Shown: piece by piece, positions 6,689 through 21,982 of the stretch
How positions within the stretch are numbered: the first letter of the stretch is position 1
How the letters are laid out: the number at the start of each line of letters is the position of its first letter
From: Candidatus Aminicenantales bacterium
Lineage (GTDB): Bacteria > Acidobacteriota > Aminicenantia > Aminicenantales > UBA4085
Direction of reading: 5' to 3'
NCBI GenBank assembly: GCA_049697115.1
Contig: JBAVVD010000060.1
Coordinates: forward strand, 3,301 to 67,300
DNA: 64,000 bases
Made by a program: the position numbers and the translations under genes
Notes under the pieces: model-generated
The model's database searches: none
Told to the model about the DNA's origin: nothing
What the model saw: the letters and a program-made list of their open reading frames with translations, nothing else

Positions 6689-7458
6689 AAATCGTTGTGC
6701 TGGGATTCGGTCATATGGGCTCCTGGATCGCCGTGGAGCTGGCCAAACGGCATGATGTTTTTATATACGACATCGATAAAAGAAAAACGAAACGCGTTAA
6801 AAACCTCGGCGTCATCCGGGCCAAAAAAGAAATCCTCCATCTTTCCCCAGGGATTCTGGTCAACGCCGTCAGCCTCCCGAACACCGTCCAGGCTTTCAAA
6901 TCCGTGGCCCGATTTTTACCCGGGGACTGTCTGCTCTGCGACCTGGCCTCGGTCAAAGGCCGGATTGCGGATTACTATCAGGCCTGTCCTTTCAAATTCT
7001 TTTCCGCCCATCCCATGTTCGGCCCCACCTTTGCCAATGTCGAATCTCTCCGGGATGAAAACGTCATCCTCATCAGGGAATCTCATCCGGAGGGCACGGC
7101 CTTCTTTCAACCTTTTTTCCAATCTTTCGGACTTAAAATCCACATCGCCACATTTGCGGAGCATGACCGGATGACTGCCTATTCCCTGACGCTCCCCTTT
7201 GTTTTCTCTCTCGCTTTTGCCGCCTGTCTGGATCAGAAACCGGTCCCCGGAACGACTTTCAAGAAGCAAATGGCGATTGCCAAAGGACTGCTGGCTGAAG
7301 ACGATGGCCTGCTTTCCGAGATTCTCTTCAATCCCCACTCTCTGCCCCAGGTGGAACAGGTGACCCGCCGGCTTGAATTCTTGAAACACATCATCAAGGC
7401 CAGAGACTTCGAAGAAGCCCGAAAGTTTTTCGACAGATTGAGGGAGAATATCCAGTAA
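6685..7458 (+). CDS. tyrA: Prephenate dehydrogenase
   Basis: NAD-binding N-terminus MKIVVLGFGHMGSWIA and a PDH catalytic region (SAHPMFGP). ATGA overlap with the pheA stop implies an operon. Confidence 0.85.
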   Translation: MKIVVLGFGHMGSWIAVELAKRHDVFIYDIDKRKTKRVKNLGVIRAKKEILHLSPGILVNAVSLPNTVQAFKSVARFLPGDCLLCDLASVKGRIADYYQACPFKFFSAHPMFGPTFANVESLRDENVILIRESHPEGTAFFQPFFQSFGLKIHIATFAEHDRMTAYSLTLPFVFSLAFAACLDQKPVPGTTFKKQMAIAKGLLAEDDGLLSEILFNPHSLPQVEQVTRRLEFLKHIIKARDFEEARKFFDRLRENIQ

Positions 7459-7461
7459 CCG

Positions 7462-8670
7462 TTAAATGATGACCAGATGGCCGTCGGCTTCCGCCGCTTT
7501 AAGACGGCCGATTTCCGCACATTCACTGCCCCTGACCGTGCTCAGGTGAACCCATTGCCTTGCCCGCGTGACCCCCACAAAAAGCATCCGCTCCCGCGCT
7601 TCTCCCTTGACCGGAGAAAACGAACTCTCGGTCAGCCGCGGCAGGAAAACGCTGTCAAAGGTCAGCCCTTTGGCTGTCTGGTAGGTCATTATCTTGGGGA
7701 TATCATTCTCTAAATCGTACGGTCCGTGGAGCACATTCTGGGCATCGCTCTCTATCACCTTCTCAATTTCCACTCCCCTCTCCTTCAGGTCTTTCGCAAA
7801 TTCATGGAGGAGGCGGTTGGAGGAAACGACAATGCCGACATTCTCATTCAGGGACTGCCTCATGTGCACGGTGGCGGCTAACTGGTCCAGCTCCGCCTCC
7901 TCGGACGGAGCCACATAGAACAGAGGCATCTTTTTCTCTTGACCCGGGACCGCGATTTGTGCCAGAAATTTACGGCGACTGTCCTCCTCCGATAAAAAAT
8001 AGGAGGCCAGTTGGGCCACGGGCGGAGCATTCCTGTAGATTCCAGAAAGCCTGTCTTTTCTCATTTTCCGCTTGAGCGTTTCCAGAAGAAAAGTCTCTGA
8101 AGTTTTATTTTCGATGAGTTTCTGCTGGAAGTCGGCAAACACGGTCAGATGTTTGGCTGCCCGCTGGAGAATCTCGAAGACATCCGGGCTTAAATCCTGC
8201 CCGTCATCGACAAGGGCGAATTCCAGAATGTTCCGGAGGTCTTCTCTGTCTTCGAGCGCCTGCAAAACCTCTGAACGGATTATCGGGTAGTCGAGCCGCA
8301 AATTCACATAGATTCTGGGCAGATTTCTGGATATGTGCTCTTCATAGAATAACCGGCACCAGTGGTCAATTGTGGTCACGGACTCTTCCGGAAGTCCCAG
8401 AAGACGGATGCCGGACTTAATCGACTCACCGGCCATCTCATTGAAGACAAACAGCCGGTATCGGCTGGGAAGAGCGCCGGACGTTCCGGCAAGATAAGCC
8501 CCCCGGTGAAGGAATGTCTGTGTTTTTCCGGAGCCCGCCGGCCCAAGGATCATACAGTGCCGGTCCGCGGGCATCTCCACGATTTTCAACTGCTCCGGCG
8601 AAAGAGAGGAACGGGCCTTCAGCCGGGATTCTTGTCGGGCGCCCGTTTCGAAAATATTCGGCTTATTCAT
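7462..8670 (-). CDS. Compact UvrD/Rep-like superfamily-1 helicase/ATPase (402 aa)
   Basis: Walker A GPAGSGKT, motif II LVDDGQDL, UvrD_C-like motif V/VI (TYQTAKGLTFDSVFLP, LFVGVTRAR). It has no accessory 1B/2B domains and is much shorter than housekeeping UvrD/PcrA. Confidence 0.65.
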   Translation of the reverse strand: MNKPNIFETGARQESRLKARSSLSPEQLKIVEMPADRHCMILGPAGSGKTQTFLHRGAYLAGTSGALPSRYRLFVFNEMAGESIKSGIRLLGLPEESVTTIDHWCRLFYEEHISRNLPRIYVNLRLDYPIIRSEVLQALEDREDLRNILEFALVDDGQDLSPDVFEILQRAAKHLTVFADFQQKLIENKTSETFLLETLKRKMRKDRLSGIYRNAPPVAQLASYFLSEEDSRRKFLAQIAVPGQEKKMPLFYVAPSEEAELDQLAATVHMRQSLNENVGIVVSSNRLLHEFAKDLKERGVEIEKVIESDAQNVLHGPYDLENDIPKIMTYQTAKGLTFDSVFLPRLTESSFSPVKGEARERMLFVGVTRARQWVHLSTVRGSECAEIGRLKAAEADGHLVII

Positions 8671-8774
8671 CCTCGGGATTTCGACGAACCATCATATCAG
8701 CCCTTCCGGTCAGCTTCAAGAGGACGAGTTCTCTGGGAACCTCTTGTTCTTTGTCCGGGCCTTTTTTCCGGATT

Positions 8775-9299
8775 TTAAATGATTCCGTGCGTCCGCTTCC
8801 ACTCCGCAAATGCTCTGTCTGCGTGTTCCAAAAATTGATCGCGCCGGTTCGGAGAGACTCTGATCTTCATTCTTTTTTTTCGGAGAATTTCTATCTGGCT
8901 TCCGTACGAAGTGATACAGCTGTATCCATACCAGACAATGATTCCTCTGGCCGCCCGCACCGATCGGAGCGTCTCAAATGGAATATTCCAGGAAAAAGCC
9001 CCGAACGTTATCTTGATCCCTTTCTGAAAAACGGAAATCTTACGCGGCAGAAAAAACCAGTAGACGGCCAGAACCAGGACAATCGAAGCGGCAAAGACGA
9101 CGGCCGCCAGGCCGGACTCCTTTCCAGGCTCTCGGGGAAAGATATCCGAGTAATAGGCATCGATGGCAAATAAAATCCCCAGGACCACGAGCAGAACAAA
9201 AGGAATCCCAAGCGCCAGCTTCACCCAGGGATCATATTTGATTCTGTCTTCAAAGAGAATCATGTCCATATCCGGTTCACTCCTTTGAAAATCCGGCAA
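8775..9299 (-). CDS. Membrane protein with bacterial PH (bPH_2/YdbS-YdbT-like) domain; TTG start
   Basis: Two N-terminal TM helices followed by a PH-like beta-rich domain. Co-oriented with the helicase 104 bp downstream. Confidence 0.55.
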   Translation of the reverse strand: MPDFQRSEPDMDMILFEDRIKYDPWVKLALGIPFVLLVVLGILFAIDAYYSDIFPREPGKESGLAAVVFAASIVLVLAVYWFFLPRKISVFQKGIKITFGAFSWNIPFETLRSVRAARGIIVWYGYSCITSYGSQIEILRKKRMKIRVSPNRRDQFLEHADRAFAEWKRTHGII

Positions 9300-11624: not shown

Positions 11625-11710
11625 TGCCGAGGGCCGGACTTGAACCGGCACGGTTGTTGCCAACCGAGGGATTTTAAGTCCCTTGCGTCTACCAATTCCG
11701 CCACCCCGGC
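11625..11710 (-). tRNA. tRNA-Leu (anticodon UAA), 86 nt, type II with long variable arm
   Basis: Reverse complement GCCGGGGTGGCGGAATTGGTAGACGCAAGGGACTTAAAATCCCTCGGTTGGCAACAACCGTGCCGGTTCAAGTCCGGCCCTCGGCA folds as a cloverleaf with anticodon loop CTTAAAA. Confidence 0.9.
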
Positions 11711-11741
11711 GAAAAACTCACGGGAGCTTTATTTCCAAATC

Positions 11742-11903
11742 CTAGCAGATTTTTCTCGCCAAATTATCATTGATTTCCTTATGACGGGGAACCGTCGAGA
11801 CCTTGTTCTTTTTTCTTTTAACATAAACGCTGTGATTGGCGCCTTCTCTAAGCAATGCACAACCATACTACTCAAGATGCCTGAGGAGTTTCCTTCTTTT
11901 CAT
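11742..11903 (-). pseudogene. hicA: HicA-family toxin homologue interrupted by an in-frame TAG at codon 12
   Basis: Translation MKRRKLLRHLE*YGCALLREGANHSVYVKRKKNKVSTVPRHKEINDNLARKIC matches the HicA pattern (LLxxLE..G, R.G.H, TVP.H.K). Its ATG overlaps the hicB TAA as TAATG. It ends 32 nt before the tRNA-Leu. Confidence 0.55.
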
Positions 11904-12118
11904 TAAATCGAGAGTTCGATTTTTTCTCGAATAACCTTTTTTCCGCTGATTTCTTCTTCAGCAAGCTTTTTATTAGCTTCTAAAACGAGGCGAATCGCTT
12001 CTTTGAGGTTTTGGCGGGCCTCTTTTAATGTCGCCCCCTGAGTATTGGCACCTGGTAACTCTTCGATAAAAGCGATATAGCCGTGTTTGACTTTTTGAAA
12101 AACGGCTGTGAAGGACAT
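11903..12118 (-). CDS. hicB: HicB-family antitoxin (UPF0150)
   Basis: 71 aa. YIAFIEELPGANTQGATLKEARQNLKEAIRLVLE is typical of HicB. Confidence 0.7.
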   Translation of the reverse strand: MSFTAVFQKVKHGYIAFIEELPGANTQGATLKEARQNLKEAIRLVLEANKKLAEEEISGKKVIREKIELSI

Positions 12119-12284
12119 TTGATCTCCTCTTTTTTGTAATTATCATATAAAACGTGGCCAGGGTCAAATCCTATGGTCAAGAATATCGAAGGCGTCAATC
12201 ACGACGCCGAAACCCAAAGGAGATTCAGGGCAAAACGAACAGCGTCCTTGACCTGTCCCGGATTTCTGATTATGCTTCGGCACG

Positions 12285-14189
12285 ATGTTTAGAAGGAAGC
12301 ACCGAGGCAACAAAGCGTCCGCGAGCGGGCTCAGCCAAAAACCGGATTCTTATCCCCCCGAATCCGTTTATAACCATAGAATCAAAACTCTGGACGTCCT
12401 TCTGAAAAAACTAAAAAAACAGGGCACTGCCCTGGGAATCCTGAAACTGAGCCTGGTACTCGGCGCTCTCCTTGCCTTATGCCACGTTTTTACCGCCAGT
12501 CCGGCTATTTCCTGGGGCATCGTCGGCCTGGCTCTGGTACTTTTCATCACAACGGCCGTGATACACGAATCCATTATCCGTAAGGCCAGGCACCTTAACG
12601 CCCTGAAAACCATTAACAAAAACGAAATTAAATTCCTTTGCCACGAGTTCCCCGAGGCCGCCCACACTGGGGAAGAATTCCAGAATTCCGACCATTATTA
12701 TACGCCCGGCCTGGATATCTTCGGTGAAAAGGGTTTATTCCATTACGTGAACCGGTCCGTCACTGCAATCGGCCGGCGCCACCTGGCAGGTTGGTTGCAG
12801 TCCAAGGCCGAGCCGGAGGAAATAAAGAAACGACAAGAGGCCGTGGCAGAACTGTCTCAAAAAATCGACCTTCGTCAAAACGTCGCCAGCTACGGCATGT
12901 TTATAGACGACTCCTCCCAGAAACTCGATTCCCTACTCAAATTCCTCCATGAACCCTTCCTCATCCTGGGCAAAAAATGGCTGCTGGTTTTCATGTTTGT
13001 GTGGCCCATGCTCACCATCTGTGCCGCGGTTTCAATCATTTTTAAAATTCCCCTGGTCGTCTTTCTCTCCTTTGCCTTGAGCCAGTATGCAATCAATAAA
13101 AAATTCTCGAAACAGCTTGCGTATTTATACAGCCTGACGTCCCGAAGCCGAAAAATCTTAAAAGCGTATTCCCGTATCATCGGAGAAATCGAGACCGAAA
13201 ACTTCAACAGCGAAAGACTCATTCAACTGAAAGATCGATTATCTAAGGCTAAACACAGGGCGTCGGTGTGCATTAGCCGATTTTCCAGGCTGATGGAATG
13301 GTTCGATGCCCGAAACGGGATGCTTCACAGCTTATTCAACAATATACTTCTGTGGGATCTCCACTGCGTTTACCACATTGAAAAATGGCGAAAACAAACA
13401 GCCGCCCATGTTCCCCAATGGTTCAACGTGATCGGTGAATTCGAAGCCCTGTCCGGGTTTGCCGCGCTGCATTTCAACAATCCCCAATGGACCATGCCGG
13501 AAATCCATGAGAACTCATTCCGCCTGCACGCCCAAAACCTGGGACACCCGTTGATTCCGGAAAAAGAACGGGTGTGCAGCAGCATCGAACTGGGCAAAAA
13601 TGGGAAGGCCATCCCAGGGGGAAACCTGGCCATCGTTACCGGTCCCAACATGGCGGGAAAAAGTACATTCCTGAAAGCCGTCGGCATCAACACGGTTTTA
13701 GCCTTTGCCGGCGCACCGGTTTGCGCGGAACGATTGGTTATTTCCCCGGTAAAACTCATGACCAGCTTGAAAACAAGCGATTCTCTGGACAAGCATTTAT
13801 CCCTTTTTTATGCCGAACTGCAGCGCTTGAAAATGATCCTGGACGGCATTTCCCGCAGCGAACCGGTGTTTTTCCTCATCGATGAGATACTCAAAGGCAC
13901 CAACGCCCTGGACCGCCAAAAAGGCTCCATAGCCCTGTTGAAACAGTTGATGCGCAGCCACGCCAACGGCATTGTCGCCACGCACGACCTGGAATTAACT
14001 AAATTGGAAAACCTCGAAGAATGGGAAAAGTCCGGCGGCCAATACCCCGAAGGAATAAATATTGCCAATTATCATTTTGACGGTTATATCAAGGAAGATA
14101 AGCTGCTGTTCGATTACCATTTAAAAAAAGGCATGTGTAAAAGTCACAATGCCCTTTTATTAATGAAAAATATGGGCATCGATATATAG
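12285..14189 (+). CDS. MutS-related ABC-ATPase (MutS domain V only) with N-terminal transmembrane region
   Basis: 634 aa. TM helices at the N-terminus and middle, then a MutS ATPase domain (GPNMAGKSTFLKAVG..., FLIDEILKGTNALDRQKGSIALL..., ATHDLELT). No mismatch-binding or connector domains. Confidence 0.65.
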   Translation: MFRRKHRGNKASASGLSQKPDSYPPESVYNHRIKTLDVLLKKLKKQGTALGILKLSLVLGALLALCHVFTASPAISWGIVGLALVLFITTAVIHESIIRKARHLNALKTINKNEIKFLCHEFPEAAHTGEEFQNSDHYYTPGLDIFGEKGLFHYVNRSVTAIGRRHLAGWLQSKAEPEEIKKRQEAVAELSQKIDLRQNVASYGMFIDDSSQKLDSLLKFLHEPFLILGKKWLLVFMFVWPMLTICAAVSIIFKIPLVVFLSFALSQYAINKKFSKQLAYLYSLTSRSRKILKAYSRIIGEIETENFNSERLIQLKDRLSKAKHRASVCISRFSRLMEWFDARNGMLHSLFNNILLWDLHCVYHIEKWRKQTAAHVPQWFNVIGEFEALSGFAALHFNNPQWTMPEIHENSFRLHAQNLGHPLIPEKERVCSSIELGKNGKAIPGGNLAIVTGPNMAGKSTFLKAVGINTVLAFAGAPVCAERLVISPVKLMTSLKTSDSLDKHLSLFYAELQRLKMILDGISRSEPVFFLIDEILKGTNALDRQKGSIALLKQLMRSHANGIVATHDLELTKLENLEEWEKSGGQYPEGINIANYHFDGYIKEDKLLFDYHLKKGMCKSHNALLLMKNMGIDI

Positions 14190-14336
14190 GACTTCCTCAA
14201 GAGTCGTGAACAATCTGAGCCAAGCTATTATCATCAACCTCGCAATACTCCCCTATTTTTCCGTAACCACCTAATTTTTCAGTAAGTTGCTGGCAATGTT
14301 GAGCTTAACGGAGTAAACTCACATTTTCTTCCTGGA

Positions 14337-14378
14337 GGATTTTAAGTCCATTGCGTCTGCCAATTCCGCCACCCCGGC
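14337..14378 (-). pseudogene. 5' half (42 nt, acceptor/D/anticodon arms) of a tRNA-Leu(UAA) gene; truncated after the anticodon loop
   Basis: rc = GCCGGGGTGGCGGAATTGGCAGACGCAATGGACTTAAAATCC, which matches the first 42 nt of the intact tRNA-Leu with 2 mismatches and then diverges. Confidence 0.8.
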
Positions 14379-14388
14379 ATTTTTTTAA

Positions 14389-14416
14389 ATTCTAACATAA
14401 AAAACTATTTCTTCAA
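14389..14416 (-). promoter_or_regulatory. Putative original tRNA-Leu promoter (TTGAAG-16-TGtTAGAAT) retained upstream of the 5' fragment
   Basis: On the minus strand: ttgaag, a 16-nt spacer, then tagaat preceded by TG, ending 11 nt before the fragment's 5' end. Confidence 0.35.
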
Positions 14417-14611
14417 TAAAAACATCTTCTGTTCAGTGACAATCCTACGATGACATTCGGGGATATTCACTCTTGACCGCTTTCAGGAGGTCTATCGCTT
14501 CGAATTCGACTTCAAAGACTCCGGGGATTTCAGGAACATCCGTTGGATATACGAGAGGGATGAATGGAATGTATGTCAGAATTTCAAAGGGCGGCTGTGT
14601 TCCTGGCCGGC

Positions 14612-15604
14612 TCACTCCGTCAGAGGAAAAAACAGGCTGGCGGCGCCGTAAACGCCCACGTTCTTCTGGAGCTTCGCGGGCCGGATGGGAAGCGCCGCAA
14701 TGAAGGGGCGATGGATGGTATATTGCGGAATCGTCCTGCGGATCCTGTCGAACAGAGGTTTCCCGATCTGTGCGACTCCGCCTCCGATTACGATCGCTTC
14801 AGGATCCAGGAGTGACACGATTCCCCCGAGCCACACGCCCAGGTAAAATCCCGTCTCGTCAAGGATCAACCGAGCCACTCGATCGCGGCGGAGCGCCGCG
14901 TCGGCAATCATCTTTGGAGTGATCCGGCTCAGGTCCCCGCGCGTCAGAGTCCGCAGCAGGCTCGGAGTTCCGGGCTCCTGCTCCAGGAGAATTCGCGCGC
15001 GGCGCGCCATGCCGGGTCCGGAGGCCAGCGCCTCAATGCACCCCCGCGTGCCGCAGCCGCAGAGGAAAGGACTGTGGTAGTCAATCAGAACATGTCCGCC
15101 CTCCCCGGCCACGCCGTTCTTCCCATGGTAAATCTTCCTGTCGATGATGATGCCCGTTCCGATGCCGGTGCTGACGGTCACATAGAACACGTTCCTGCAG
15201 CCCACAGCCGCTCCGATGAGCGTTTCCGCCAGACCGGCCCCATTGGCGTCTTTCTCCACCATAACCGGCAGGCCGAACCTCTTCTGGACCAGCCGGGCGA
15301 GCGGCACGTTGTGCCACCCGGGCAGATTCGGGGGGTTGATCACCACACCGGTTGCGGGATTCAGCGGGCCGGGGGAGCAGATTCCGATGCCGCGGAGATT
15401 TTGCTTTCCGCGCGCCAGACGGATCAGGCGCTCGATCAATTTAAAGACCTGCGCCAGGCTGGTTGTCCGGCCTTTTTCGGCCAGCGTCGGCACGACCAGC
15501 GACCGCGTCAGACGCCCTTTTCGGGTCACAAGGCCGCCCGCGATCTTGGTGCCTCCGATATCGATCCCAAGGGTTAATTTCTGCATTGCTGAATTTTTTG
15601 GCAT
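14612..15604 (-). CDS. ROK-family glucokinase / sugar kinase
   Basis: LGIDIGGTKIAGGLV N-terminus and ROK signature region (CGCGTRGCIEA). Confidence 0.8.
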   Translation of the reverse strand: MPKNSAMQKLTLGIDIGGTKIAGGLVTRKGRLTRSLVVPTLAEKGRTTSLAQVFKLIERLIRLARGKQNLRGIGICSPGPLNPATGVVINPPNLPGWHNVPLARLVQKRFGLPVMVEKDANGAGLAETLIGAAVGCRNVFYVTVSTGIGTGIIIDRKIYHGKNGVAGEGGHVLIDYHSPFLCGCGTRGCIEALASGPGMARRARILLEQEPGTPSLLRTLTRGDLSRITPKMIADAALRRDRVARLILDETGFYLGVWLGGIVSLLDPEAIVIGGGVAQIGKPLFDRIRRTIPQYTIHRPFIAALPIRPAKLQKNVGVYGAASLFFPLTE

Positions 15605-15613
15605 GGATACTCC

Positions 15614-16816
15614 TTATTCGTACCTGGCGCGGCCGAATATCGCCAGTCCGAAGACATACATAAAACACACGGCGGGCACCAGCATTGCCGCGTGCATACC
15701 GTAATTGTCCCCAACCCATCCCACCACTGGCGGAATCAGAGCCCCGCCCATGATGGCGGTGCAGAGAAGTCCGGAGATCGTGCCGTGGTTTTCTGTGAAA
15801 CTGTTGATTGTCCCGCTCATCATCAATGTGATGAGGACAGAGGTGAAGAATCCGCAGGCGGCAAATCCAACAGCGGTCAAACTTCTGGACCCGAAGTTGG
15901 CGGCCAGCAGGCAAACCACCGCCATGAATGAATAGAGCCGCAGGATCCTCCGGCTGCCGAACCGGTTGAGAACCGCGCCGCTCACAAGGCGGCCTGTGCC
16001 CTGCAGCCCCCAGAACAGGGCCACGATCAGCGCCGGCAGGGTGGGCAAGACTTTACGGAAGAGGCCGGTGGCCTCGAGATTGACGATGTCCGCGGTCAGC
16101 CCATGGACGCGCTCAAAAAACTTGACGATCCAGGATGCGGTTCCGACCTCTGCCCCGACATAGAAAAAGACGCCCAGGGCGTAGACCCGAACAAGGGGAT
16201 TCTTCAGAATTTTGCCCAGTTGGTCCACGCGGATCCGGTCGCCGGCCGCAGTTACCGTGGACGGAAAGCGCGAAAAGGCCAGCGGCGCCAGCAGCGCCAG
16301 GCAAAGCACTGCAAATAAGATGTAGAGGCTCTGCCAGCTTCGGCCCGTCCCCCGGATGAAGGCCAGCACGAATGGCCCGAGGAAAGCGCCAATACCGCAG
16401 AACCCGATGGTCAGGGTCAGATTGCGATGATAATTCTCCGGGCGGTCCAGATGCTGGATCAGCGGGTTGCCGGCGGTCTGCAGGATGGTCACACCCACCC
16501 CGACTGTAAATATCATGGCCAGCATCAATGGGTAGTCCCGGGCCCATGCCACAACCAGACAGCCCAAACCCATCAGGATCACTCCGGCCAAAATGAGCGG
16601 CTTGGCCCCGAAACGGTCCATGATCAGGCCGGTGGGAATGGAAAAGAGGCCGTAGGCGATGAAGAAGCTGAACGCCAGGAAGCCGGCAGCAAACAGGCTC
16701 AATTGATATTGTCGGATGACTTCAGGAATGATCACGCCCAGGATGTTCGTGATCATGCCAAACGTAAAGTAGGCCAAAAAGAAGAATCCCAAGAGACCGG
16801 AAGGACGCTCTGACAT
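15614..16816 (-). CDS. MFS sugar transporter, FHS (glucose/galactose/fucose:H+ symporter) family
   Basis: 400 aa with 12 TM helices and an N-terminal region like GluP/FucP (FFFLAYFTFGMITNILGVIIPEV...). Directly upstream of the ROK kinase (operon). Confidence 0.75.
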   Translation of the reverse strand: MSERPSGLLGFFFLAYFTFGMITNILGVIIPEVIRQYQLSLFAAGFLAFSFFIAYGLFSIPTGLIMDRFGAKPLILAGVILMGLGCLVVAWARDYPLMLAMIFTVGVGVTILQTAGNPLIQHLDRPENYHRNLTLTIGFCGIGAFLGPFVLAFIRGTGRSWQSLYILFAVLCLALLAPLAFSRFPSTVTAAGDRIRVDQLGKILKNPLVRVYALGVFFYVGAEVGTASWIVKFFERVHGLTADIVNLEATGLFRKVLPTLPALIVALFWGLQGTGRLVSGAVLNRFGSRRILRLYSFMAVVCLLAANFGSRSLTAVGFAACGFFTSVLITLMMSGTINSFTENHGTISGLLCTAIMGGALIPPVVGWVGDNYGMHAAMLVPAVCFMYVFGLAIFGRARYE

Positions 16817-16994
16817 ATAGAGCCCTCCTAAAGGGAGCTAATTGATACAGAGACAATAAGCAAATCGCCGGCTGCGCTGAACATTTTCCGCTCTTTCCAT
16901 TCCCTGAAACATGCCGTATAGTACTTTAAGTGTAAATCCGTAGTCAAGTGAATGGGGCTCGATGTGTGCATCTTCTCGTCCGCGCGCCGTCTTT

Positions 16995-17023
16995 TTGACA
17001 TCGCTTGAATCCTGTGCTATAAA
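16995..17023 (+). promoter_or_regulatory. Near-consensus sigma70 promoter TTGACA-17-TATAAA for the glycerate kinase-pyk operon; adjacent gaatcct repeats / palindrome (17005-17055) are a candidate operator
   Basis: ttgaca at 16995-17000 and tataaa at 17018-17023. A perfect inverted repeat ggaatcct-gtcag-aggattc lies at about 17033-17052 and a direct copy of gaatcctgt at about 17005. Confidence 0.5.
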
Positions 17024-17092
17024 TCCAGGAAAGGAATCCTGTCAGAGGATTCTTCTATCCATAATAAATTAATACAGACATTTTGTGAAACA

Positions 17093-18421
17093 ATGAGCCT
17101 GGCTAAACTAAAGAAAGACGCCCTGGCCATTTTTCAGGCCGGAGTCGAGGCGGTCAATCCCGTTCACGCCGTAAAAAAGCATCTCCGGCTCGTAAAGAAA
17201 AAGCTGTGGGCCGGAGAGAAAACTTATGACCTTGCTGCCTATAACGCTGCCTATGTCATCGGCGCGGGCAAGGCGGCTGCGGCCATGGCGCAGCCCGTCG
17301 AAGAAATACTGGGCAGTCGTTTGAAAGACGGTGTCATCAATGTGAAGTATGGACATACTCTTCCCTTAAAGACTATCCGGACTTTCGAGGCCGGCCACCC
17401 TGTGCCGGACGAAGCGGGACTGCGCGGCATGCGGGAAATCCTCGAGCTTCTCAATCAGACCGGCGAAAAAGACCTGGTGATCTGTCTGCTCTCAGGTGGA
17501 GGCTCTGCCCTGATGCCCTGTCCCGCCGAAGGGCTGACGCTGGAAGACATACAGCAGGTGACCCGGCAGCTTCTCGACTGCGGAGCCGCCATTCCGGAAA
17601 TCAACGCCATCAGAAAGCATATTTCGCGGGTCACGGGCGGGCGCCTGTCTCAAATGGCTTTCCCTTCCTCACTCATTTCCCTGATCCTCTCCGATGTCAT
17701 CGGCGATGATCTCGAAAATATCGCTTCAGGGCCGACTGTGCCGGACCGCACGACTTTCAGCGACGGCTTGCAGATTCTGGAAAAATACGGAATTTCCCAT
17801 AAAATTCCATCCGCTGCCCTCGCACATATAAAAAAAGGTGTCGCGGGGAAAATAGAGGAGACGCCGAAACCGGGCGATCCTGTCTTTGCCCGCACGCAGA
17901 ATATCATCATAGGAAACAACATCACAGCCATCGAGGCGGCCGGACAAAAAGCGGAACGGCTGGGATATCACACACTGATACTCTCTTCCCTCATCGGTGG
18001 GGAGACCAGAGAAGTGGCCGGAGTCCATGCCGCCGTTGCCCGGGAAATCGCCCGAACCGGCCATCCTGTCCCAAAGCCTGCCTGTGTCATATCCGGAGGG
18101 GAGACAACGATCACTATTCGAGGCCAGGGGCTCGGCGGGCGCAACCAGGAATTTGCCCTGGCCGCGGCCACCGCAATCAACGGCCTGGAAAACGGGCTGA
18201 TCCTGAGTGCGGGAACGGACGGGATAGACGGTCCGACCGATGCGGCGGGCGCCGTGGCCGATGGAACGACAGTCGAACGGGCCGTCCGGTCCGGCATGAA
18301 TCCGGAAAGCTATCTTCGGGATAATGATTCCTATCACTTCTTTAAGCGCTTGGACGATCTGGTCATTACCGGCCCCACCTACACAAACGTCATGGACCTG
18401 AGGTTGATCCTCGTGGCCTGA
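17093..18421 (+). CDS. Glycerate 2-kinase (MOFRL/DUF4147 family, GckA/TtuD-like)
   Basis: 442 aa with a family-typical N-terminus (AIFQAGVEAVNPV...) and C-terminal MOFRL region (SGGETTITIRGQGLGGRNQEFALAAA). Confidence 0.8.
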   Translation: MSLAKLKKDALAIFQAGVEAVNPVHAVKKHLRLVKKKLWAGEKTYDLAAYNAAYVIGAGKAAAAMAQPVEEILGSRLKDGVINVKYGHTLPLKTIRTFEAGHPVPDEAGLRGMREILELLNQTGEKDLVICLLSGGGSALMPCPAEGLTLEDIQQVTRQLLDCGAAIPEINAIRKHISRVTGGRLSQMAFPSSLISLILSDVIGDDLENIASGPTVPDRTTFSDGLQILEKYGISHKIPSAALAHIKKGVAGKIEETPKPGDPVFARTQNIIIGNNITAIEAAGQKAERLGYHTLILSSLIGGETREVAGVHAAVAREIARTGHPVPKPACVISGGETTITIRGQGLGGRNQEFALAAATAINGLENGLILSAGTDGIDGPTDAAGAVADGTTVERAVRSGMNPESYLRDNDSYHFFKRLDDLVITGPTYTNVMDLRLILVA

Positions 18422-18433
18422 GAGGAGGAGGCT

Positions 18434-19849
18434 GTGCTGAGAACAAAAATTGTCTGTACCATCGGGCCGGCCTCTCAGTCCCCAAAGATGCTGGAGCAGC
18501 TTATTCAGGCGGGCATGAATGTGGCCCGATTGAACCTCTCCCACGGGACACTTGCGGAGCATTCCCGTATCATCGCTTCTCTCCGGAAAACTTCCTCCCG
18601 TCTGAACACACCCATCTCCATTCTCCTGGACGTGGCCGGTCCCAAGATCCGGATCGGAAAGATCGAAGACGGAACAATCCGGCTTGAGTCCGGAGACCTG
18701 TTTACTTTGACAGCGAGAAAAGTCCGTGGAACCAAGAAGGAGGTTTCCGTCAGTTATCCCCTTCTCCCCAAAAATGTTCGCCCCGGCGATACTCTTCTCT
18801 TGAGCGACGGCATGCTGGAACTCAAAGTCCTTGAGACCGACGGCCGGGACATCAAGTGCCGGGTGGTCATCGGCGGTCCGCTCAGCTCCAAGAAAGGAAT
18901 CAATCTTCCTTCCCGGTCTTTAACGGCGCCCTGTTTAACAGAAAAGGACAAGAAAGACCTCGCCTTCGGCCTTAACAGGGAGGTCGATTATATTGCCCTT
19001 TCATTTGTCAGAACGGCCGAAGATGTGCTTCAGGCGAAGCGTATAATGAAAAAAGCCGGCTCTTTTATTCCCTTGATTGCCAAGATTGAAAAGCATGAAG
19101 CTCTGGTCCATATCAACGAGATTATCCGGGTCATAGACGGGATAATGATCGCACGGGGAGATCTCGGTGTTGAAACACCTCTTGAGAATGTTCCCTCGGT
19201 CCAGAAGTCACTGATCCATAAGTCAAACCTGGCCGGCAAACCAGTCATTACCGCCACTCAGATGCTTCGTTCCATGGTGGATAATCCCCGGCCGACAAGA
19301 GCCGAAGTGACGGATGTGGCCAACGCCGTGCTGGATGGCACGGACGCTGTCATGCTTTCCGAAGAGACAGCGATCGGAAAATATCCGGTCGAGGCCGTGG
19401 CTACCATGAAAAGAATCGCTGAAGACGCAGAAGCCATTTTCCCCTTTGAAATATGGATGCCGCGCACAGAACAAAAAGGTGTGAAATCTATTCCCGAAGC
19501 CATCAGCTGTGCCGCCTGCAATCTGGCCGGTAACATCCAGGCCTCACTGATCATCACTTTTACCCAATCAGGAAGTACCGCTCGCCTTGTGGCCAAATGC
19601 CGCCCCCGTCATCTCATTCTGGCACCGACCCCCCTGGAAAAAACCTTCCGACAACTGGCTCTTATCTGGGGTGTCATTCCGATCCTGAGCAAAAGCATGA
19701 AAAATACCGATGAAATGGTGAAAAAGGCTCTGGCTGCAGCCTTCAAATCCGGCTATGTCCAACCGGGACAAAAGGTAGTCATCACAGCCGGTTATCCTGT
19801 CGGTGAGCCGGGGACAACCAATTTAATCAAGGCGGCCATCCTAAAATAA
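18434..19849 (+). CDS. pyk: Pyruvate kinase
   Basis: TKIVCTIGPAS...NVARLNLSHG and MIARGDLGVE motifs. GTG start with a strong SD aggaggagg. Confidence 0.92.
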   Translation: MLRTKIVCTIGPASQSPKMLEQLIQAGMNVARLNLSHGTLAEHSRIIASLRKTSSRLNTPISILLDVAGPKIRIGKIEDGTIRLESGDLFTLTARKVRGTKKEVSVSYPLLPKNVRPGDTLLLSDGMLELKVLETDGRDIKCRVVIGGPLSSKKGINLPSRSLTAPCLTEKDKKDLAFGLNREVDYIALSFVRTAEDVLQAKRIMKKAGSFIPLIAKIEKHEALVHINEIIRVIDGIMIARGDLGVETPLENVPSVQKSLIHKSNLAGKPVITATQMLRSMVDNPRPTRAEVTDVANAVLDGTDAVMLSEETAIGKYPVEAVATMKRIAEDAEAIFPFEIWMPRTEQKGVKSIPEAISCAACNLAGNIQASLIITFTQSGSTARLVAKCRPRHLILAPTPLEKTFRQLALIWGVIPILSKSMKNTDEMVKKALAAAFKSGYVQPGQKVVITAGYPVGEPGTTNLIKAAILK

Positions 19850-19867
19850 CGGCCGGAGGTGGTTCGA

Positions 19868-20035
19868 ATGAGCAGCCTTCACTTTCTTTTTCCCACTCTG
19901 ATCGCGATTTTTATTTCCTTTCTTTTTGTCAGGGCTGCAGCTATCGCTTTGATGCTGACAGGAATGGAAAAGAAAAAGGCGAAATTCCAGGCCCTCTCAG
20001 CGTTTTCAGGAACGGGCGCGGCTTTGGAGATGTGA
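19868..20035 (+). CDS. Small hypothetical membrane protein (55 aa)
   Basis: ORF MSSLHFLFPTLIAIFISFLFVRAAAIALMLTGMEKKKAKFQALSAFSGTGAALEM, below the track's 60-aa cutoff. One TM helix. Weak support. Confidence 0.2.
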   Translation: MSSLHFLFPTLIAIFISFLFVRAAAIALMLTGMEKKKAKFQALSAFSGTGAALEM

Positions 20036-20139
20036 ACGGTGAGGAGCGGCAAATTGAAAAGAATCCCTCCGGGGATTATAATAACGGCGAACCCAAAAAC
20101 AGATCCGGAGGAAAAACGTCCGCAGGAGCGCAGGAATTC

Positions 20140-21207
20140 ATGTCCGTGAATAAAAAAACCTTCGTCCTCCCTGAAAAACTCTCTCTTGAGAATTTAGCTC
20201 CTCTGTTGAAACTCCTCCGGCAAGAAAAAAAAGGCTCTCGGATCGCCATGGATTTTAAAAACGTCAAGGAATTCGATTCCTCGGGTGTCGCTTTTCTAAA
20301 CTACATCCAAATCCAGCATGAAGATGTCGTCTTTCAGAACATTCCGGATGATCTGGAAAAAGCTCTGGCCCGGTTCAGCTCGGACCGCACCGCGGACATC
20401 CAGGTGCCTGCCCGCCCGCTCTCTCCGGGAAAACTGGAGGTCCTTGCCGACAAGTTCTTAAAGACGTCCGAAGAAATGAAAAAATTTTTCTCTCTTTTAG
20501 CGGATGAAATTTTCCATACCTTCCAGTACATTGGAAAACGCAGAGGAACCTACCCTGGAGACATTCTCCATCAGTTTTTTTTCATGGGCTACAGGTCGTA
20601 TCCCATTGTCTGTATGATTTCCTTCCTGGTGGGAATTACCATTTCATTGACTTCGGCCGCCCAGCTCAAGCTCTTTGGGGCGAATATCTACCTGGCTGAC
20701 TTCATCGGCATCGGCATGGTGAAAGAGCTTGTTCCCCTTATGACCGGCATCATCCTGGCGGGGAAGATCGGGGCTTCCATCGCCGCTGAAATCTCAACAA
20801 TGAAAGTGATGGAAGAAGTTGATGCGTTGAAGACCATGGGGATCATTCCCGAGAAATTTCTCATGGTCCCCCGGTTGATCGCCATTTCACTGGCCGTTCC
20901 GCTGCTTGTGGTTCTGGCCGATATTGTCGGCATATTCGGGGGAATCCTTGTCGCCAAATTCTCATTGGGAATTCCCCCGGCGAGTTTTATCCAGGAAGCG
21001 CTCAGCGTCATCTCCCTGGGGGATTTCTTCATCGGGATAGGAAAGACCATGGTCTTCGGGTGGGCCGTGGTCATCAGCAGCGGCTTCAAAGGATTTTTTG
21101 TTCAGAGGGGCGCGGAAGATGTGGGAGTGGCCACGACGGAGTCTGTCGTCCTTTCCATATCCCTGATCATCATCCTGGATTGCCTCTTTGCTTTTGTCAT
21201 TTATTAA
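20140..21207 (+). CDS. mlaE: MlaE-family ABC lipid transporter permease with N-terminal STAS (MlaB-like) domain fusion
   Basis: N-terminal ~100 aa are STAS-like (IAMDFKNVKEFDSSGVAFLNYIQ), followed by an MlaE permease core (LVPLMTGIILAGKIGASIAAEISTMKV). Confidence 0.7.
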   Translation: MSVNKKTFVLPEKLSLENLAPLLKLLRQEKKGSRIAMDFKNVKEFDSSGVAFLNYIQIQHEDVVFQNIPDDLEKALARFSSDRTADIQVPARPLSPGKLEVLADKFLKTSEEMKKFFSLLADEIFHTFQYIGKRRGTYPGDILHQFFFMGYRSYPIVCMISFLVGITISLTSAAQLKLFGANIYLADFIGIGMVKELVPLMTGIILAGKIGASIAAEISTMKVMEEVDALKTMGIIPEKFLMVPRLIAISLAVPLLVVLADIVGIFGGILVAKFSLGIPPASFIQEALSVISLGDFFIGIGKTMVFGWAVVISSGFKGFFVQRGAEDVGVATTESVVLSISLIIILDCLFAFVIY

Positions 21208-21220
21208 GGCGATTAAAGCG

Positions 21221-21982
21221 ATGGAAGTGATTGCAGCCAAAAATCTTGTCGTCGGCTACGGCGATTCCGTGATCCTTGAAGATCTGAATTTTTTCATTGC
21301 CAAAGGCAAAATCACCGTTATTGTCGGTGAAAGCGGTTCCGGAAAGACAACGCTCTTCAGAACTCTGATCGGACTGCTTCCTCCGTTGTCAGGTGAAATG
21401 TATCTCTCCGGCGTAAAGGTGGATTTTCATTCTGAAAAAAGCCTGCAATCTCTCTACAGGGAAATCGGCGTCCTCTATCAGGGCGGCGCTTTGATCAATT
21501 CACTGAGCCTCTACGAAAATGTGGCCCTGCCCATAAGGATTCACTTTCCGGGACTTCCGAAAGAGATTGAAGCCTCGATTGTCCTTTCCAAGCTGTCCCA
21601 GGTCGGTCTCAGAGAATGCAGCGAAAAATATCCTTCTGAACTTTCCGGAGGCATGAGAAAAAGAGCGGCCCTGGCCCGGGCGATGGTCCTGGACCCTCAG
21701 ATCATCATCTGCGACGAACCGTCCTCAGGCCTCGACCCGATCACCTCATCCAGCCTGGATGACCTGCTGCTGGATCTGAAGTCCCGATGGGGCATGACCC
21801 TCGTTGTGATAACCCATGAATTGCGATCCATTGAAAAAATCGCCGATCGGGTGATTATTTTAAATAATGGAAGAATCCTGTTCAACGGGGAGCAAAGCCT
21901 CCTCGACTCCACGGAAGATCCTTATATCCAGACGTTCTTCCTGAAGAGAGGGAATCATGGTGACCAAAGAGCAAAAAATTAG
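21221..21982 (+). CDS. mlaF: ABC transporter ATP-binding protein MlaF
   Basis: Walker A GESGSGKTT, signature LSGGMRKRAALARA and Walker B IIICDEP. Confidence 0.85.
   Translation: MEVIAAKNLVVGYGDSVILEDLNFFIAKGKITVIVGESGSGKTTLFRTLIGLLPPLSGEMYLSGVKVDFHSEKSLQSLYREIGVLYQGGALINSLSLYENVALPIRIHFPGLPKEIEASIVLSKLSQVGLRECSEKYPSELSGGMRKRAALARAMVLDPQIIICDEPSSGLDPITSSSLDDLLLDLKSRWGMTLVVITHELRSIEKIADRVIILNNGRILFNGEQSLLDSTEDPYIQTFFLKRGNHGDQRAKN

What the first reader, a model, noticed from the sequence alone, without database searches (positions are those of the whole stretch)
11625..14425. 2.6-kb islet between an intact tRNA-Leu(UAA) and a promoter-bearing 5' half-copy of the same tRNA, carrying hicB, an amber-interrupted hicA and a membrane MutS-like ATPase
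The intact tRNA-Leu (11625-11710, minus strand) lies 32 nt downstream of a hicB-hicA(pseudo) pair. About 2.6 kb upstream on the same strand there is a 42-nt copy of the tRNA's 5' half (14337-14378). It has 2 mismatches, breaks exactly after the anticodon loop, and still carries what looks like the native tRNA promoter (TTGAAG-16-TGtTAGAAT). That geometry would arise if an element inserted at the anticodon-loop region and supplied its own 5' half, so that the intact gene is now a hybrid. This would be the mirror image of the usual 3'-end duplication, and the 2 mismatches fit a foreign 5' half. No integrase remains, so the islet would be a decayed remnant. Its cargo is a toxin-antitoxin pair with the toxin inactivated, plus an unusual 634-aa protein that combines TM segments with only the MutS ABC-ATPase domain. 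Membrane MutS-like ATPases have no established function, and sitting next to a TA module on an island raises a defence or abortive-infection role as a possibility.
Basis: partly seen in the sequence, partly recalled or inferred. Interest (0 to 1): 0.6.

Follow-up and report, generated by a model that had tools for sequence, protein, structure and literature searches.

The report
Decayed mobile-element remnant splitting tRNA-Leu gene
A 2.6-kb stretch lying between a leftover front half of a leucine tRNA gene and the working gene is the worn-down remnant of a mobile element that rebuilds the tRNA gene with its own front half, and the same junction turns up in many environmental genomes, so this is one member of a recurring and little-described element family.

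Summary
An intact tRNA-Leu(UAA) lies at 11625-11710 (-). A 42-nt copy of its 5' half with 2 mismatches lies at 14337-14378 (-), still behind a consensus promoter. Between them are hicB, a hicA pseudogene and a MutS-like gene.

About 85 nt next to the fragment (14252-14336) match a conserved element arm found after the same junction in 11 other copies on 10 metagenome contigs. A sister element type gives a clean empty/occupied pair (L145/L149). Other contigs carry arrays of up to four 5'-half copies. A tyrosine integrase gene ends 10 nt before the tRNA in L200.

The window's copy has no integrase and lacks the arm's TGACACA repeat pair, so it is an immobile, CIME-like remnant.

Corrections:
- hicA has two in-frame amber codons, not one.
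- One of the two mismatches is unique among 127 copies, so it looks like decay rather than foreign origin.
- The MutS-like protein belongs to a very large family and shows no defence link.

Toxin-antitoxin operons reading straight into the tRNA 5' end recur across these elements. The rebuilt tRNA is therefore probably transcribed from the element.

The parts
11625..11710 (-). Intact tRNA-Leu(UAA). Inferred to be a hybrid: 5' part (about positions 1-41) from the element, 3' part native. Acts as the attR side.
   Evidence: ARAGORN; Rfam tRNA 58 bits. The hybrid status is inferred from the geometry and from arrays in L184 and L162.
11669..11710 (-). 42-nt 5'-half repeat copy inside the intact gene.
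   Evidence: blastn 42/42 self-match, with its partner at 14337-14378.
11718..11903 (-). hicA toxin pseudogene. Amber codons at 11870-11868 and 11744-11742, both replacing Lys. TGA stop at 11720-11718, 7 nt before the tRNA.
   Evidence: Translation; Pfam HicA_toxin E = 1e-10 with K restored. Intact homologues in L087 and L094 have K at both positions.
11739..11747 (-). TGCTAGGAT, an extended -10-like motif created by the second amber codon, 28 nt upstream of the tRNA. Candidate internal promoter (inferred only).
   Evidence: Read from the sequence. Homologues have TG(C/T)AA(A/G)GAT at this place. The consensus scan, which needs both hexamers, did not call it.
11903..12118 (-). hicB antitoxin gene, intact, 71 aa.
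   Evidence: Pfam UPF0150/HicB-like, weak. 2,132 homologues, best 86% identity. hicB remnants abut tRNA-Leu 5' ends in L201, L123, L160 and L197.
12139..12167 (-). Promoter-like site of the hicBA operon (TTGACC-17-GATAAT). Probable source of the hicB-hicA-tRNA transcript.
   Evidence: 10 of 12 matches. No minus-strand terminator-like site lies between it and the tRNA.
12285..14189 (+). Membrane MutS-like ABC ATPase, 634 aa: about 4 TM segments, weak MutS_III, MutS_V with Walker A GPNMAGKST. It lies between the att repeats; whether it is cargo or a later capture is unresolved.
   Evidence: Pfam, NCBIfam all below cut-offs, PDB MutS/MutS2 domain V only, hydropathy and codon usage, family size.
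14252..14336 (-). Remnant of the element's left arm ('type A'): TCCAGGAAGAAAA, a hairpin, then TTGCCAGCAACTTACTGAAAAATTA... It is truncated before the TGACACA-N4-TGACACA repeat pair.
   Evidence: Alignment of 12 copies (A2). blastn against the arm consensus: 37 nt at 89% (E = 2e-6) plus 14/14 at the junction. Hairpins have different stem sequences. The repeat pair is absent from the window.
14337..14378 (-). Displaced native 5' half of tRNA-Leu(UAA) (attL side), decaying.
   Evidence: The stem T is unique among 127 copies.
14389..14416 (-). Orphaned native tRNA promoter, TTGAAG-16-(TG)TAGAAT.
   Evidence: Same design as the promoters upstream of intact tRNA-Leu genes in L103, L202 and L211.

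Best explanation
The 2,626 bp between the two 5'-half copies (11711-14336) are the remnant of an integrative element that recombined with the tRNA-Leu(UAA) gene in its anticodon stem-loop, in the rare reversed orientation.

The element's attachment site carried tRNA positions 1-41. After integration, the native promoter and native 5' half were left upstream as a dead fragment joined to the element's left arm. The element's own 5' half was joined to the native 3' half, giving a working hybrid gene.

The recombinase was most likely a tyrosine integrase of the kind encoded directly upstream of tRNA-Leu in L200. The window's copy has lost it, together with the inner arm that carries the TGACACA repeat pair (probable arm-type binding sites). 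It is therefore now fixed, a CIME-like remnant.

The hybrid tRNA has lost its own promoter. It is probably made by read-through of the element's hicB-hicA operon, whose frame ends 7 nt before the tRNA, and/or from the extended -10 (TGCTAGGAT) that the second amber mutation in hicA created. The toxin has since been killed by two Lys-to-amber changes.

Shown: the repeat, the arm homology, site polymorphism in relatives, arrays, integrase adjacency, and the hicA lesions.

Inferred: the crossover position (3' of the two mismatches, that is within GGACTTAAAATCC), the identity of the recombinase, and the route of tRNA transcription.
For: - The repeat is real and unique in the window.
- A metagenome scan with the 42-mer gave 106 intact genes and about 20 5'-half fragments, all of which break after ...AAAATCC.
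- 11 of those fragments continue with the same arm as the window.
- L145 and L149 share flanks at 97-98% identity and differ by a 1,314-bp insert flanked by the 42-nt repeat.
- L184 has 4 copies, L162 has 3 and L197 has 2. In L184 and L162 the first copy reads AATTGG while all later copies, and in L184 the intact gene too, read AAGTGG.
- A Phage_integrase ORF (E = 2e-32) ends 10 nt before the tRNA in L200, whose tRNA variable arm is identical to the window's. Homologues lie upstream of the tRNA or a fragment in L190, L182 and L112.
- TGACACA-N4-TGACACA occurs in only 6 of 226 loci: five type A arms and the L200 integrase 3' end, always in the tRNA's orientation.
- A co-oriented integrase, toxin-antitoxin or other cargo gene ends within 45 nt of the 5' half in many loci.
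- Recombination with the 5'-distal part of tRNA genes is documented but uncommon (PMC6563490, citing Zhao and Williams 2002).
Against: - No empty site could be found for this lineage. Its nearest relatives are only about 69% identical in a housekeeping protein, and synteny is lost there.
- No integrase was found in the islet or its immediate flanks. A tblastn of the L200 integrase and a motif screen of ORFs of 150 aa or more over the whole 64-kb window also found none.
- Only about 85 nt of the arm are conserved in the window.
- MutS-like shows vertical-looking divergence and genome-typical GC (0.49 against 0.51). That is odd for recent cargo.
- The link between the type A arm and the L200 integrase rests on one shared repeat motif.
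- No expression data exist.
- The taxonomy of the metagenome loci was not determined.
Confidence: 0.8

Rival explanations
1. The islet was never autonomous. It is a cassette of a tRNA-anchored gene-capture array. In this reading, small integrase-less units that each end in a tRNA-Leu 5' half are inserted one after another into the tRNA gene by a recombinase encoded elsewhere, much as integron cassettes are inserted at attI.
For: - Arrays of 2-4 copies exist with one or two genes per unit and no integrase inside.
- A 1.3-kb unit holding only two genes (an HEPN-like protein and a nucleotidyltransferase) is present in L149 and absent from L145. The same unit sits behind a different upstream unit in L213.
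- Cargo is rich in toxin-antitoxin and conflict genes.
Against: - Decay of once-autonomous elements followed by accretion explains the same pattern. This is the CIME model (PMC5704250), and tycheposon islands show it too (bioRxiv 10.1101/2020.12.28.424599).
- Autonomous copies with an integrase exist (L200).
- Genes lie in both orientations, and units range from 0.2 to 3.8 kb.
- No trans-acting integrase was identified next to any array.
Confidence: 0.25
2. The promoter, 5' half and conserved hairpin arm have been exapted as a small RNA gene or as an antisense regulator of the convergent MutS-like gene. They are kept by selection rather than being debris.
For: - A near-consensus promoter is retained.
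- The 42-mer is 95% intact.
- The arm hairpin is kept with different stem sequences in different copies.
- Transcription from the orphan promoter would run antisense into the 3' end of the MutS-like gene.
Against: - The fragment carries a stem-breaking change found in none of 127 other copies.
- The same 5' half is joined to at least two unrelated arm families and to gene ends.
- Downstream genes differ in every locus.
- No Rfam family matches.
Confidence: 0.07
3. hicBA and the membrane MutS-like ATPase together form a defence or abortive-infection module carried as island cargo.
For: - Other elements at this site carry conflict genes: the TOTE primase domain with a ResIII helicase, AbiEi/AbiEii, PIN, a RelA_SpoT-domain protein and GIY-YIG.
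- The two genes are divergently arranged, with promoter-like sites back to back.
Against: - MutS-like has only P-loop-level PADLOC hits.
- Its homologues lie in unrelated contexts, with no adjacent hicBA and no tRNA-Leu: L003 and L005 have no TA pair at all, and L002 has only a different, longer hicB/hicA pair about 4 kb away behind five other genes.
- None is found in 120 tRNA-Leu loci.
- The family is huge and its divergence looks vertical.
- hicA is dead.
Confidence: 0.08
4. The arrangement is an assembly chimera or a chance local duplication.
For: The source is a metagenome-assembled genome. The Logan contig L001 ends inside the tRNA, at window 11682.
Against: - L001 independently spans hicA, hicB, MutS-like, the fragment and ROK at 100% identity.
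- The two copies share no exact 31-mer, so they cannot mislead a k-mer assembler.
- The arm next to the fragment is conserved in 10 unrelated contigs.
- The repeat has E = 1.8e-14.
Confidence: 0.02

Closest known systems
Reverse-orientation tRNA/tmRNA integrative elements (Zhao and Williams 2002, J Bacteriol 184:859; archaeal cases cited in PMC6563490)
   Same: The element recombines with the 5'-distal part of the gene. It must therefore bring the 5' part and a way to transcribe the rebuilt gene. What is left behind is a 5' fragment rather than a 3' fragment.
   Different: - The target here is bacterial tRNA-Leu(UAA).
- The family includes integrase-less units in arrays.
- The tRNA-proximal end is usually a toxin-antitoxin operon or the integrase gene reading into the tRNA.
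- I could not read the 2002 paper (not held), so details of that element come from memory and from its citations only.
CIME (cis-mobilizable element) and accretion at att sites (PMC5704250)
   Same: The element has lost its integration genes but keeps both att-derived repeats. Tandem accumulation occurs at one target gene.
   Different: - CIMEs were defined for ICE/IME derivatives at the 3' ends of genes in Firmicutes.
- In the window one arm is truncated and lacks the putative arm-type sites, so even mobilisation in cis or trans is doubtful.
Tycheposon islands of Prochlorococcus (bioRxiv 10.1101/2020.12.28.424599)
   Same: tRNA-anchored islands are built by repeated integration. Partial tRNA copies separate the units, and decayed remnants are common.
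   Different: Different recombinases, hosts and tRNAs. The 5'-half orientation and a toxin-antitoxin operon reading into the tRNA are not features I found described there.
HicAB type II toxin-antitoxin system
   Same: A Pfam HicA_toxin match and a HicB/UPF0150 match, encoded as adjacent overlapping genes.
   Different: - The toxin carries two nonsense codons.
- HicB is a short 71-aa form with no recognisable DNA-binding domain.
- The gene order is hicB then hicA.
MutS family ABC ATPases (MutS1, MutS2, KamC)
   Same: MutS domain V with Walker A and Walker B motifs, and part of domain III.
   Different: - No mismatch-binding domain I, no connector or clamp, and no Smr domain.
- About four transmembrane segments.
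- All NCBIfam scores are far below the family cut-offs (for example 117 bits against 480 for MutS).

Membership tests
tRNA-targeting site-specific integrative element (genomic islet) | Direct repeat of part of the tRNA gene flanking the inserted DNA, with an intact gene at one end | tested here: met
   A 42-nt repeat at 11669-11710 and 14337-14378, 95% identical, E = 1.8e-14.
tRNA-targeting site-specific integrative element (genomic islet) | Integrase gene inside the element | tested here: not met
   No recombinase domain among the ORFs of the islet or its flanks. tblastn with the L200 integrase against the window found nothing.
tRNA-targeting site-specific integrative element (genomic islet) | Presence/absence polymorphism at the same site | tested here: inconclusive
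   Met for a sister element with the identical junction (L145 empty, L149 occupied). Not testable for the window's own lineage, because no relative is closer than about 70%.
tRNA-targeting site-specific integrative element (genomic islet) | Element-specific arm sequence next to the core, shared by independent insertions | tested here: met
   The type A arm aligns in 12 copies including the window.
Reverse-orientation (5'-half) tRNA integrators | The duplicated block is the 5' part of the gene, and the displaced fragment keeps the native promoter | tested here: met
   The fragment covers positions 1-42 and sits behind TTGAAG-16-TGTTAGAAT.
Reverse-orientation (5'-half) tRNA integrators | The element supplies transcription for the rebuilt gene | not testable with these tools
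   Only sequence-level candidates exist: the hicBA promoter at 12167-12139 with no terminator before the tRNA, and TGCTAGGAT at 11747-11739. RNA data are needed.
CIME | Both att sites retained and integration genes lost | tested here: inconclusive
   Both core repeats are retained and the integrase is absent. However, the arm is cut after about 85 nt and the TGACACA repeat pair is missing.
Integron | intI integrase next to attI, with cassettes bounded by attC | tested here: not met
   No integrase was found next to the arrays examined. The repeats are tRNA halves, not attC, and genes lie in both orientations.
HicAB toxin-antitoxin | HicA domain and HicB domain in one operon | tested here: met
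   Pfam HicA_toxin E = 1e-10 (stops replaced by K) and UPF0150/HicB_lk weak hits; the genes overlap by one base.
HicAB toxin-antitoxin | Intact toxin reading frame | tested here: not met
   Two in-frame TAG codons, at codons 12 and 54.
MutS1/MutS2 mismatch-repair or endonuclease proteins | Score above the curated family cut-off; domains I-IV (MutS1) or an Smr domain (MutS2) | tested here: not met
   NCBIfam: 117 bits against a cut-off of 480, 91 against 642, and 74 against 400. Pfam finds only MutS_V and a marginal MutS_III.
Known anti-phage defence systems (PADLOC) | Match to a defence-system protein model | tested here: not met
   MutS-like gives only 25-residue P-loop matches (E about 1e-3). 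hicA gives nothing and hicB only a stray weak Cas8b match (E 0.004, 14.6 bits).

The most novel reading that the evidence does not exclude
tRNA-Leu(UAA) serves, in a set of uncultured sediment and soil bacteria, as the anchor of an integron-like capture platform.

In this reading, short integrase-less units, often a single toxin-antitoxin or conflict gene set, each carry a tRNA 5' half as their attachment site. A trans-acting tyrosine integrase stacks them in front of the gene. Each new unit takes over transcription of an essential tRNA and so makes itself hard to lose.

The window's islet would be one old, frozen unit of such a platform.
Probability: 0.25. Interest if true: 0.8.

Novelty: new variant of a known kind. 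Interest (0 to 1): 0.55.

Why it matters
Integration into tRNA genes almost always replaces the 3' end, because that spares the promoter. Here a whole family does the opposite at one tRNA.

The comparative data point to how the promoter problem is solved. A toxin-antitoxin operon, or the integrase gene itself, reads straight into the rebuilt tRNA.

If that is correct, the host's only reader of UUA codons becomes dependent on element-driven transcription. That is a second addiction layer on top of the toxin-antitoxin pair, and it could explain why such remnants persist after the integrase and the toxin are gone.

The site also behaves as a small hotspot for toxin-antitoxin and conflict genes in poorly studied phyla.

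For genome annotation, 5' tRNA halves with good promoters should be read as island boundaries, not as pseudogene noise.

Tried and rejected
- **Synteny through ROK.** The genome-contig scan gave best relatives at 70% identity in Terriglobia MAGs, with tRNA-Pro upstream and no tRNA-Leu.
- **Synteny through glycerate kinase**. Only the glycerate kinase / pyruvate kinase pair is conserved. No empty site can be recovered for this lineage.
- **Contexts of the three closest MutS-like homologues**. All differ and none has tRNA-Leu. pheA lies nearby in L002, but at only 47% identity, so it was not pursued.
- **GC content as a mark of foreign DNA**. MutS-like is genome-typical. The ROK and MFS flanks are the high-GC outliers. 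MutS-like's codon-usage distance is only slightly high. Rejected as evidence either way.
- **Viral contigs.** The 42-mer and two junction patterns gave nothing apart from one chance hit inside a large phage ORF, probably a portal gene (read by eye, not scanned).
- **Rfam on the fragment and arms**. No family matched; only weak tRNA-like hits deeper in some arms.
- **Group I intron in tRNA-Leu(UAA).** Considered and rejected. The break lies after the anticodon loop, and a complete uninterrupted gene is present.
- **IS200/IS605-type insertion.** Considered because of the subterminal hairpin. Rejected because the 42-nt duplication and the integrase adjacency fit site-specific recombination better.
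- **Integrases inside arrays.** I looked for them and found none. The 311-aa and 335-aa ORFs without Pfam hits look like secreted proteins.
- **HicB homologue contexts**. These are ordinary scattered toxin-antitoxin loci, several with a dead hicA.
- **Literature.** The 2002 papers by Williams are not held.


Full report
**1. What is in the window**

ARAGORN finds two tRNA genes in the window. One is tRNA-Leu(UAA) at 11625-11710 on the minus strand, and Rfam scores it at 58 bits.

A blastn of this gene against the whole window finds one other match. Positions 1-42 align to 14378-14337 at 95.2% identity, E = 1.8e-14. The two differences are T>C in the D-loop and G>T in the 5' strand of the anticodon stem. 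Identity stops after ...AAAATCC, three bases into the 3' strand of the anticodon stem.

A near-consensus promoter, TTGAAG-16-TAGAAT with the TG extension, ends 10 nt before the fragment. It has the same layout as the promoters in front of intact tRNA-Leu genes in several metagenome loci, for example L103, L202 and L211.

Between the two copies lie three genes:
- **hicB** (11903-12118, -; weak UPF0150/HicB hits).
- **hicA** (11903-11718, -).
- **A 634-aa MutS-like gene** (12285-14189, +; MutS_V 1.5e-24, marginal MutS_III).

An independent Logan assembly, L001, reproduces 11682-23338 exactly. The two repeat copies share no exact 31-mer. The arrangement is therefore not an assembly artefact.

**2. 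Corrections to the description**

hicA has two in-frame TAG codons, at codon 12 (11870-11868) and codon 54 (11744-11742). The frame then runs on to a TGA only 7 nt before the tRNA. With Lys at both places the 61-aa product matches Pfam HicA_toxin end to end (E = 1e-10). Intact homologues in L087 and L094 have Lys codons at both positions.

Several homologous hicBA loci (L088-L093) also carry a dead hicA with other lesions. Toxin loss is therefore recurrent in this family.

The second amber changes TGCAAGGAT-like sequence into TGCTAGGAT. This is an extended -10-like motif 28 nt before the tRNA. That is an observation only; its function is not shown.

**3. The fragment is one end of a recurring element**

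I scanned metagenome contigs for the 42-mer, leaving the two mismatch positions degenerate.

Among about 127 copies, 106 are intact tRNA-Leu(UAA) genes. About 20 are 5' halves that all break at the same place.

Eleven of these, on 10 contigs (L113, L128, L129, L160, L179, L184, L188, L197 twice, L206 and a degenerate one in L134, with a 5'-truncated one in L193), continue with the same sequence as the window. That sequence is TCCAGGAAGAAAA, a hairpin, then TTGCCAGCAACTTACTGAAAAATTA.... I call this the type A arm.

The window shares about 85 nt of it (14252-14336). Against the arm consensus, blastn gives 37 nt at 89% (E = 2e-6) plus 14/14 at the junction.

The hairpin is kept with at least four different stem sequences.

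A second arm family, type C/D (GAAATGGAGGGTTTAGCTATTTTCTTTAAAATCAGC...), follows the same junction in L135, L149, L162, L184, L188 and L213.

**4. Direct evidence that these are insertions**

L145 and L149 share upstream and downstream flanks at 97-98% identity. L149 has 1,314 extra bp flanked by the 42-nt repeat, and L145 has an uninterrupted gene. The insert encodes a nucleotidyltransferase and a small partner that looks HEPN-like to me but has no Pfam hit.

L213 carries the same insert at 96% identity and the same downstream flank. Upstream of its fragment, however, lies a different sequence, also found in front of intact genes in L137 and L177. There it is the end of what I read as an MntA/HepT pair. 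That reading is mine and was not checked with Pfam.

L184 has four copies of the 5' half (5410, 7077, 10360, and the intact gene at 12494). Single genes lie between them: an ATPase_2/DUF234 protein, a Ser/Thr kinase with TPR repeats, and a peptidase S9. L162 has three copies and L197 has two.

In L184 and L162 the first copy reads AATTGG. Every later copy, and in L184 also the intact gene, reads AAGTGG. That is what is expected if each incoming element brings its own 5' half and pushes the older one upstream.

**5. The recombinase**

No unit inside the arrays encodes an integrase.

A motif screen of all ORFs found a tyrosine recombinase in L200 (Phage_integrase, E = 1.6e-32). It ends 10 nt before an intact tRNA-Leu(UAA) whose variable arm is identical to the window's. 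A HerA-like ATPase lies upstream of it. Homologues lie directly upstream of the tRNA in L190 and L182, and upstream of a 5' fragment in L112.

The exact doublet TGACACA-N4-TGACACA occurs in only 6 of 226 fetched loci. Five are type A arms, where it lies about 140-160 nt from the junction. The sixth is the 3' end of the L200 integrase gene, 51-68 nt before the tRNA. In all six it has the tRNA's orientation.

I infer that these are arm-type binding sites on both sides of one attachment site, and that the L200-type enzyme serves the type A elements.

The window has no such doublet even with two mismatches, no integrase homologue, and no recombinase domain among nearby genes. Its element is therefore a frozen remnant. 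It fits the CIME idea of an element that kept its att repeats but lost its integration genes (PMC5704250), with the reservation that one arm is truncated.

**6. How the rebuilt gene is probably expressed**

Integration in this orientation cuts the 3' two-thirds of the tRNA off from its promoter.

Across the loci, the gene that ends within 45 nt of the 5' half and points into it is, repeatedly, one of the following:
- the integrase (L112, L190, L200, and decayed copies in L143 and L182);
- a nucleotidyltransferase of a two-gene toxin-antitoxin-like unit (L135, L149, L213);
- a HepT-like gene (L137, L177; my reading);
- hicB or its remnants (L201, with 87% identity to the window's HicB over 53 residues; L123; L160; L197).

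In the window, hicB-hicA has a promoter-like site at 12167-12139 (10 of 12 matches). No terminator-like site lies between it and the tRNA.

The most economical reading is co-transcription of the tRNA with the element's terminal operon, possibly helped by the new TGCTAGGAT. This step is inferred and needs RNA data.

**7. The two mismatches**

The D-loop position is polymorphic among intact genes (78 T, 49 C), so it says nothing about origin. The stem G>T is found in none of 127 other copies and breaks a G-C pair. It is best read as decay of a fragment that no longer has to fold.

If the differences predate integration, the crossover lay 3' of them, within GGACTTAAAATCC. That region is the anticodon loop and its flanks.

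**8. The MutS-like protein**

It has Walker A (GPNMAGKST) and Walker B motifs. It aligns to solved MutS and MutS2 structures only over domain V and is far below every NCBIfam cut-off. It has two hydrophobic blocks consistent with four membrane segments.

It is not rare. 18,571 cluster representatives match at E <= 0.001 and 3,165 at E <= 1e-30. All 150 listed hits (nearly all ~600 aa) align along nearly the whole query, including the membrane part.

Its best hits, in Aminicenantes, are 70-71% identical. A neighbouring housekeeping gene, glycerate kinase, peaks at the same level, 69%. Its divergence therefore looks vertical, and the organism simply has no close sequenced relatives.

GC (0.49) and GC3 (0.60) are genome-typical. 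Its codon-usage distance is slightly high for its length.

Its three closest homologues lie in three unrelated neighbourhoods without tRNA-Leu. None occurs in the 120 tRNA-Leu loci. PADLOC gives only P-loop matches.

Whether it arrived with the element or was captured later cannot be decided. There is no direct support for a defence role.

The only indirect point in favour is that other elements at this site do carry conflict genes: the TOTE primase domain with a ResIII helicase, AbiEi/AbiEii, PIN, a RelA_SpoT-domain protein and GIY-YIG. But arrays also hold secreted proteins, kinases and peptidases.

**9. Comparison with what is known**

Recombination with the 5'-distal part of a tRNA gene is documented but much rarer than with the 3' part (PMC6563490, citing Zhao and Williams 2002 and several archaeal cases).

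Tandem accretion with partial tRNA copies between units, and decay to integrase-less remnants, are also known (PMC5704250; the tycheposon preprint, bioRxiv 10.1101/2020.12.28.424599).

To my knowledge three things have not been described together:
- a widespread bacterial family using the 5' half of tRNA-Leu(UAA);
- arrays of small integrase-less units at that site;
- a toxin-antitoxin operon or integrase gene reading straight into the rebuilt tRNA.

I therefore rate it a new variant of a known kind. The window's own copy is an old, immobile example.

**10. Limits**

- No empty site exists for this lineage.
- The taxonomy of the metagenome loci was not determined.
- The integrase-arm link rests on one motif.
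- Several gene identities in related loci are my reading of the sequence, not profile hits (HEPN-like partner, MntA/HepT, the toxin in L113).
- No expression or recombination data are available.

Noticed in passing
window 7129-7141 (+): An exact 13-nt copy of the anticodon stem-loop core (GGACTTAAAATCC), in the opposite orientation, inside a prephenate-dehydrogenase-like gene. E = 0.06, probably chance.
   Followed up: no
window 7462-9299 (-): On the 3' side of the tRNA lies a 402-aa UvrD-like helicase that matches a PADLOC 'NERD+UvrD' candidate (1e-17) and GajB models, followed by a bacterial PH-domain membrane protein. This could be a defence gene pair on the classical island side of the tRNA.
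   Followed up: partly
window 14612-16816 (-): The ROK kinase and MFS transporter next to the fragment have the highest GC in the window (0.62 and 0.59, GC3 0.75, against a window mean of 0.51). The best ROK relatives among species-representative genomes are Terriglobia, at 70% identity. They may themselves have been acquired horizontally.
   Followed up: partly
window 14189-14416 (-): The orphaned tRNA promoter points into the 3' end of the convergent MutS-like gene, and the arm hairpin is not followed by a T-run in that direction. Read on the plus strand, the same hairpin is followed by TTTTCTTCC and could end the MutS-like transcript.
   Followed up: partly
L160 5288-5362 (+); L197 1535-1609 (-): About 160 nt beyond the junction, some type A arms run into a weak tRNA-like sequence (Rfam tRNA 23.5 bits, below the 29-bit threshold; not called by ARAGORN) that ends ...GGCCCCGCCA. 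It may be a second decayed tRNA target or part of the attachment site.
   Followed up: no
L099, L178, L186: The same tRNA-Leu(UAA) also carries classical 3'-type repeats in other contigs (copies starting at positions 10-22 and running to the 3' end). Both ends of this gene are therefore used by different element families.
   Followed up: no
L088-L093 (hicB at 5001-5216): In a set of near-identical contigs, the hicA next to a HicB 80% identical to the window's is also dead: an amber at codon 5, a frameshift, or an N-terminal deletion. Toxin loss with antitoxin retention is recurrent in this family.
   Followed up: partly
L160 about 4850-5086: Upstream of a type A fragment, the start of the HEPN-like gene of the type C unit (MGEFKK...) is fused to the last 20 codons of a hicB-like gene. 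This is a mosaic left by deletions between units.
   Followed up: no
L134 2673-2924 (-): A degenerate 5' half with a type A arm lies 124 nt downstream of an intact tRNA-Leu(UAA) with a different T-arm. The simple model does not predict this order. It may mean two tandem tRNA-Leu genes or a more complex rearrangement.
   Followed up: no
L002 8001-14291: In the contig of the closest long MutS-like homologue (69% identity), pheA and a different, longer hicA/hicB pair lie within 5 kb. The window also has pheA 5.6 kb away. The pheA proteins are only 47% identical, so the linkage may be chance.
   Followed up: partly
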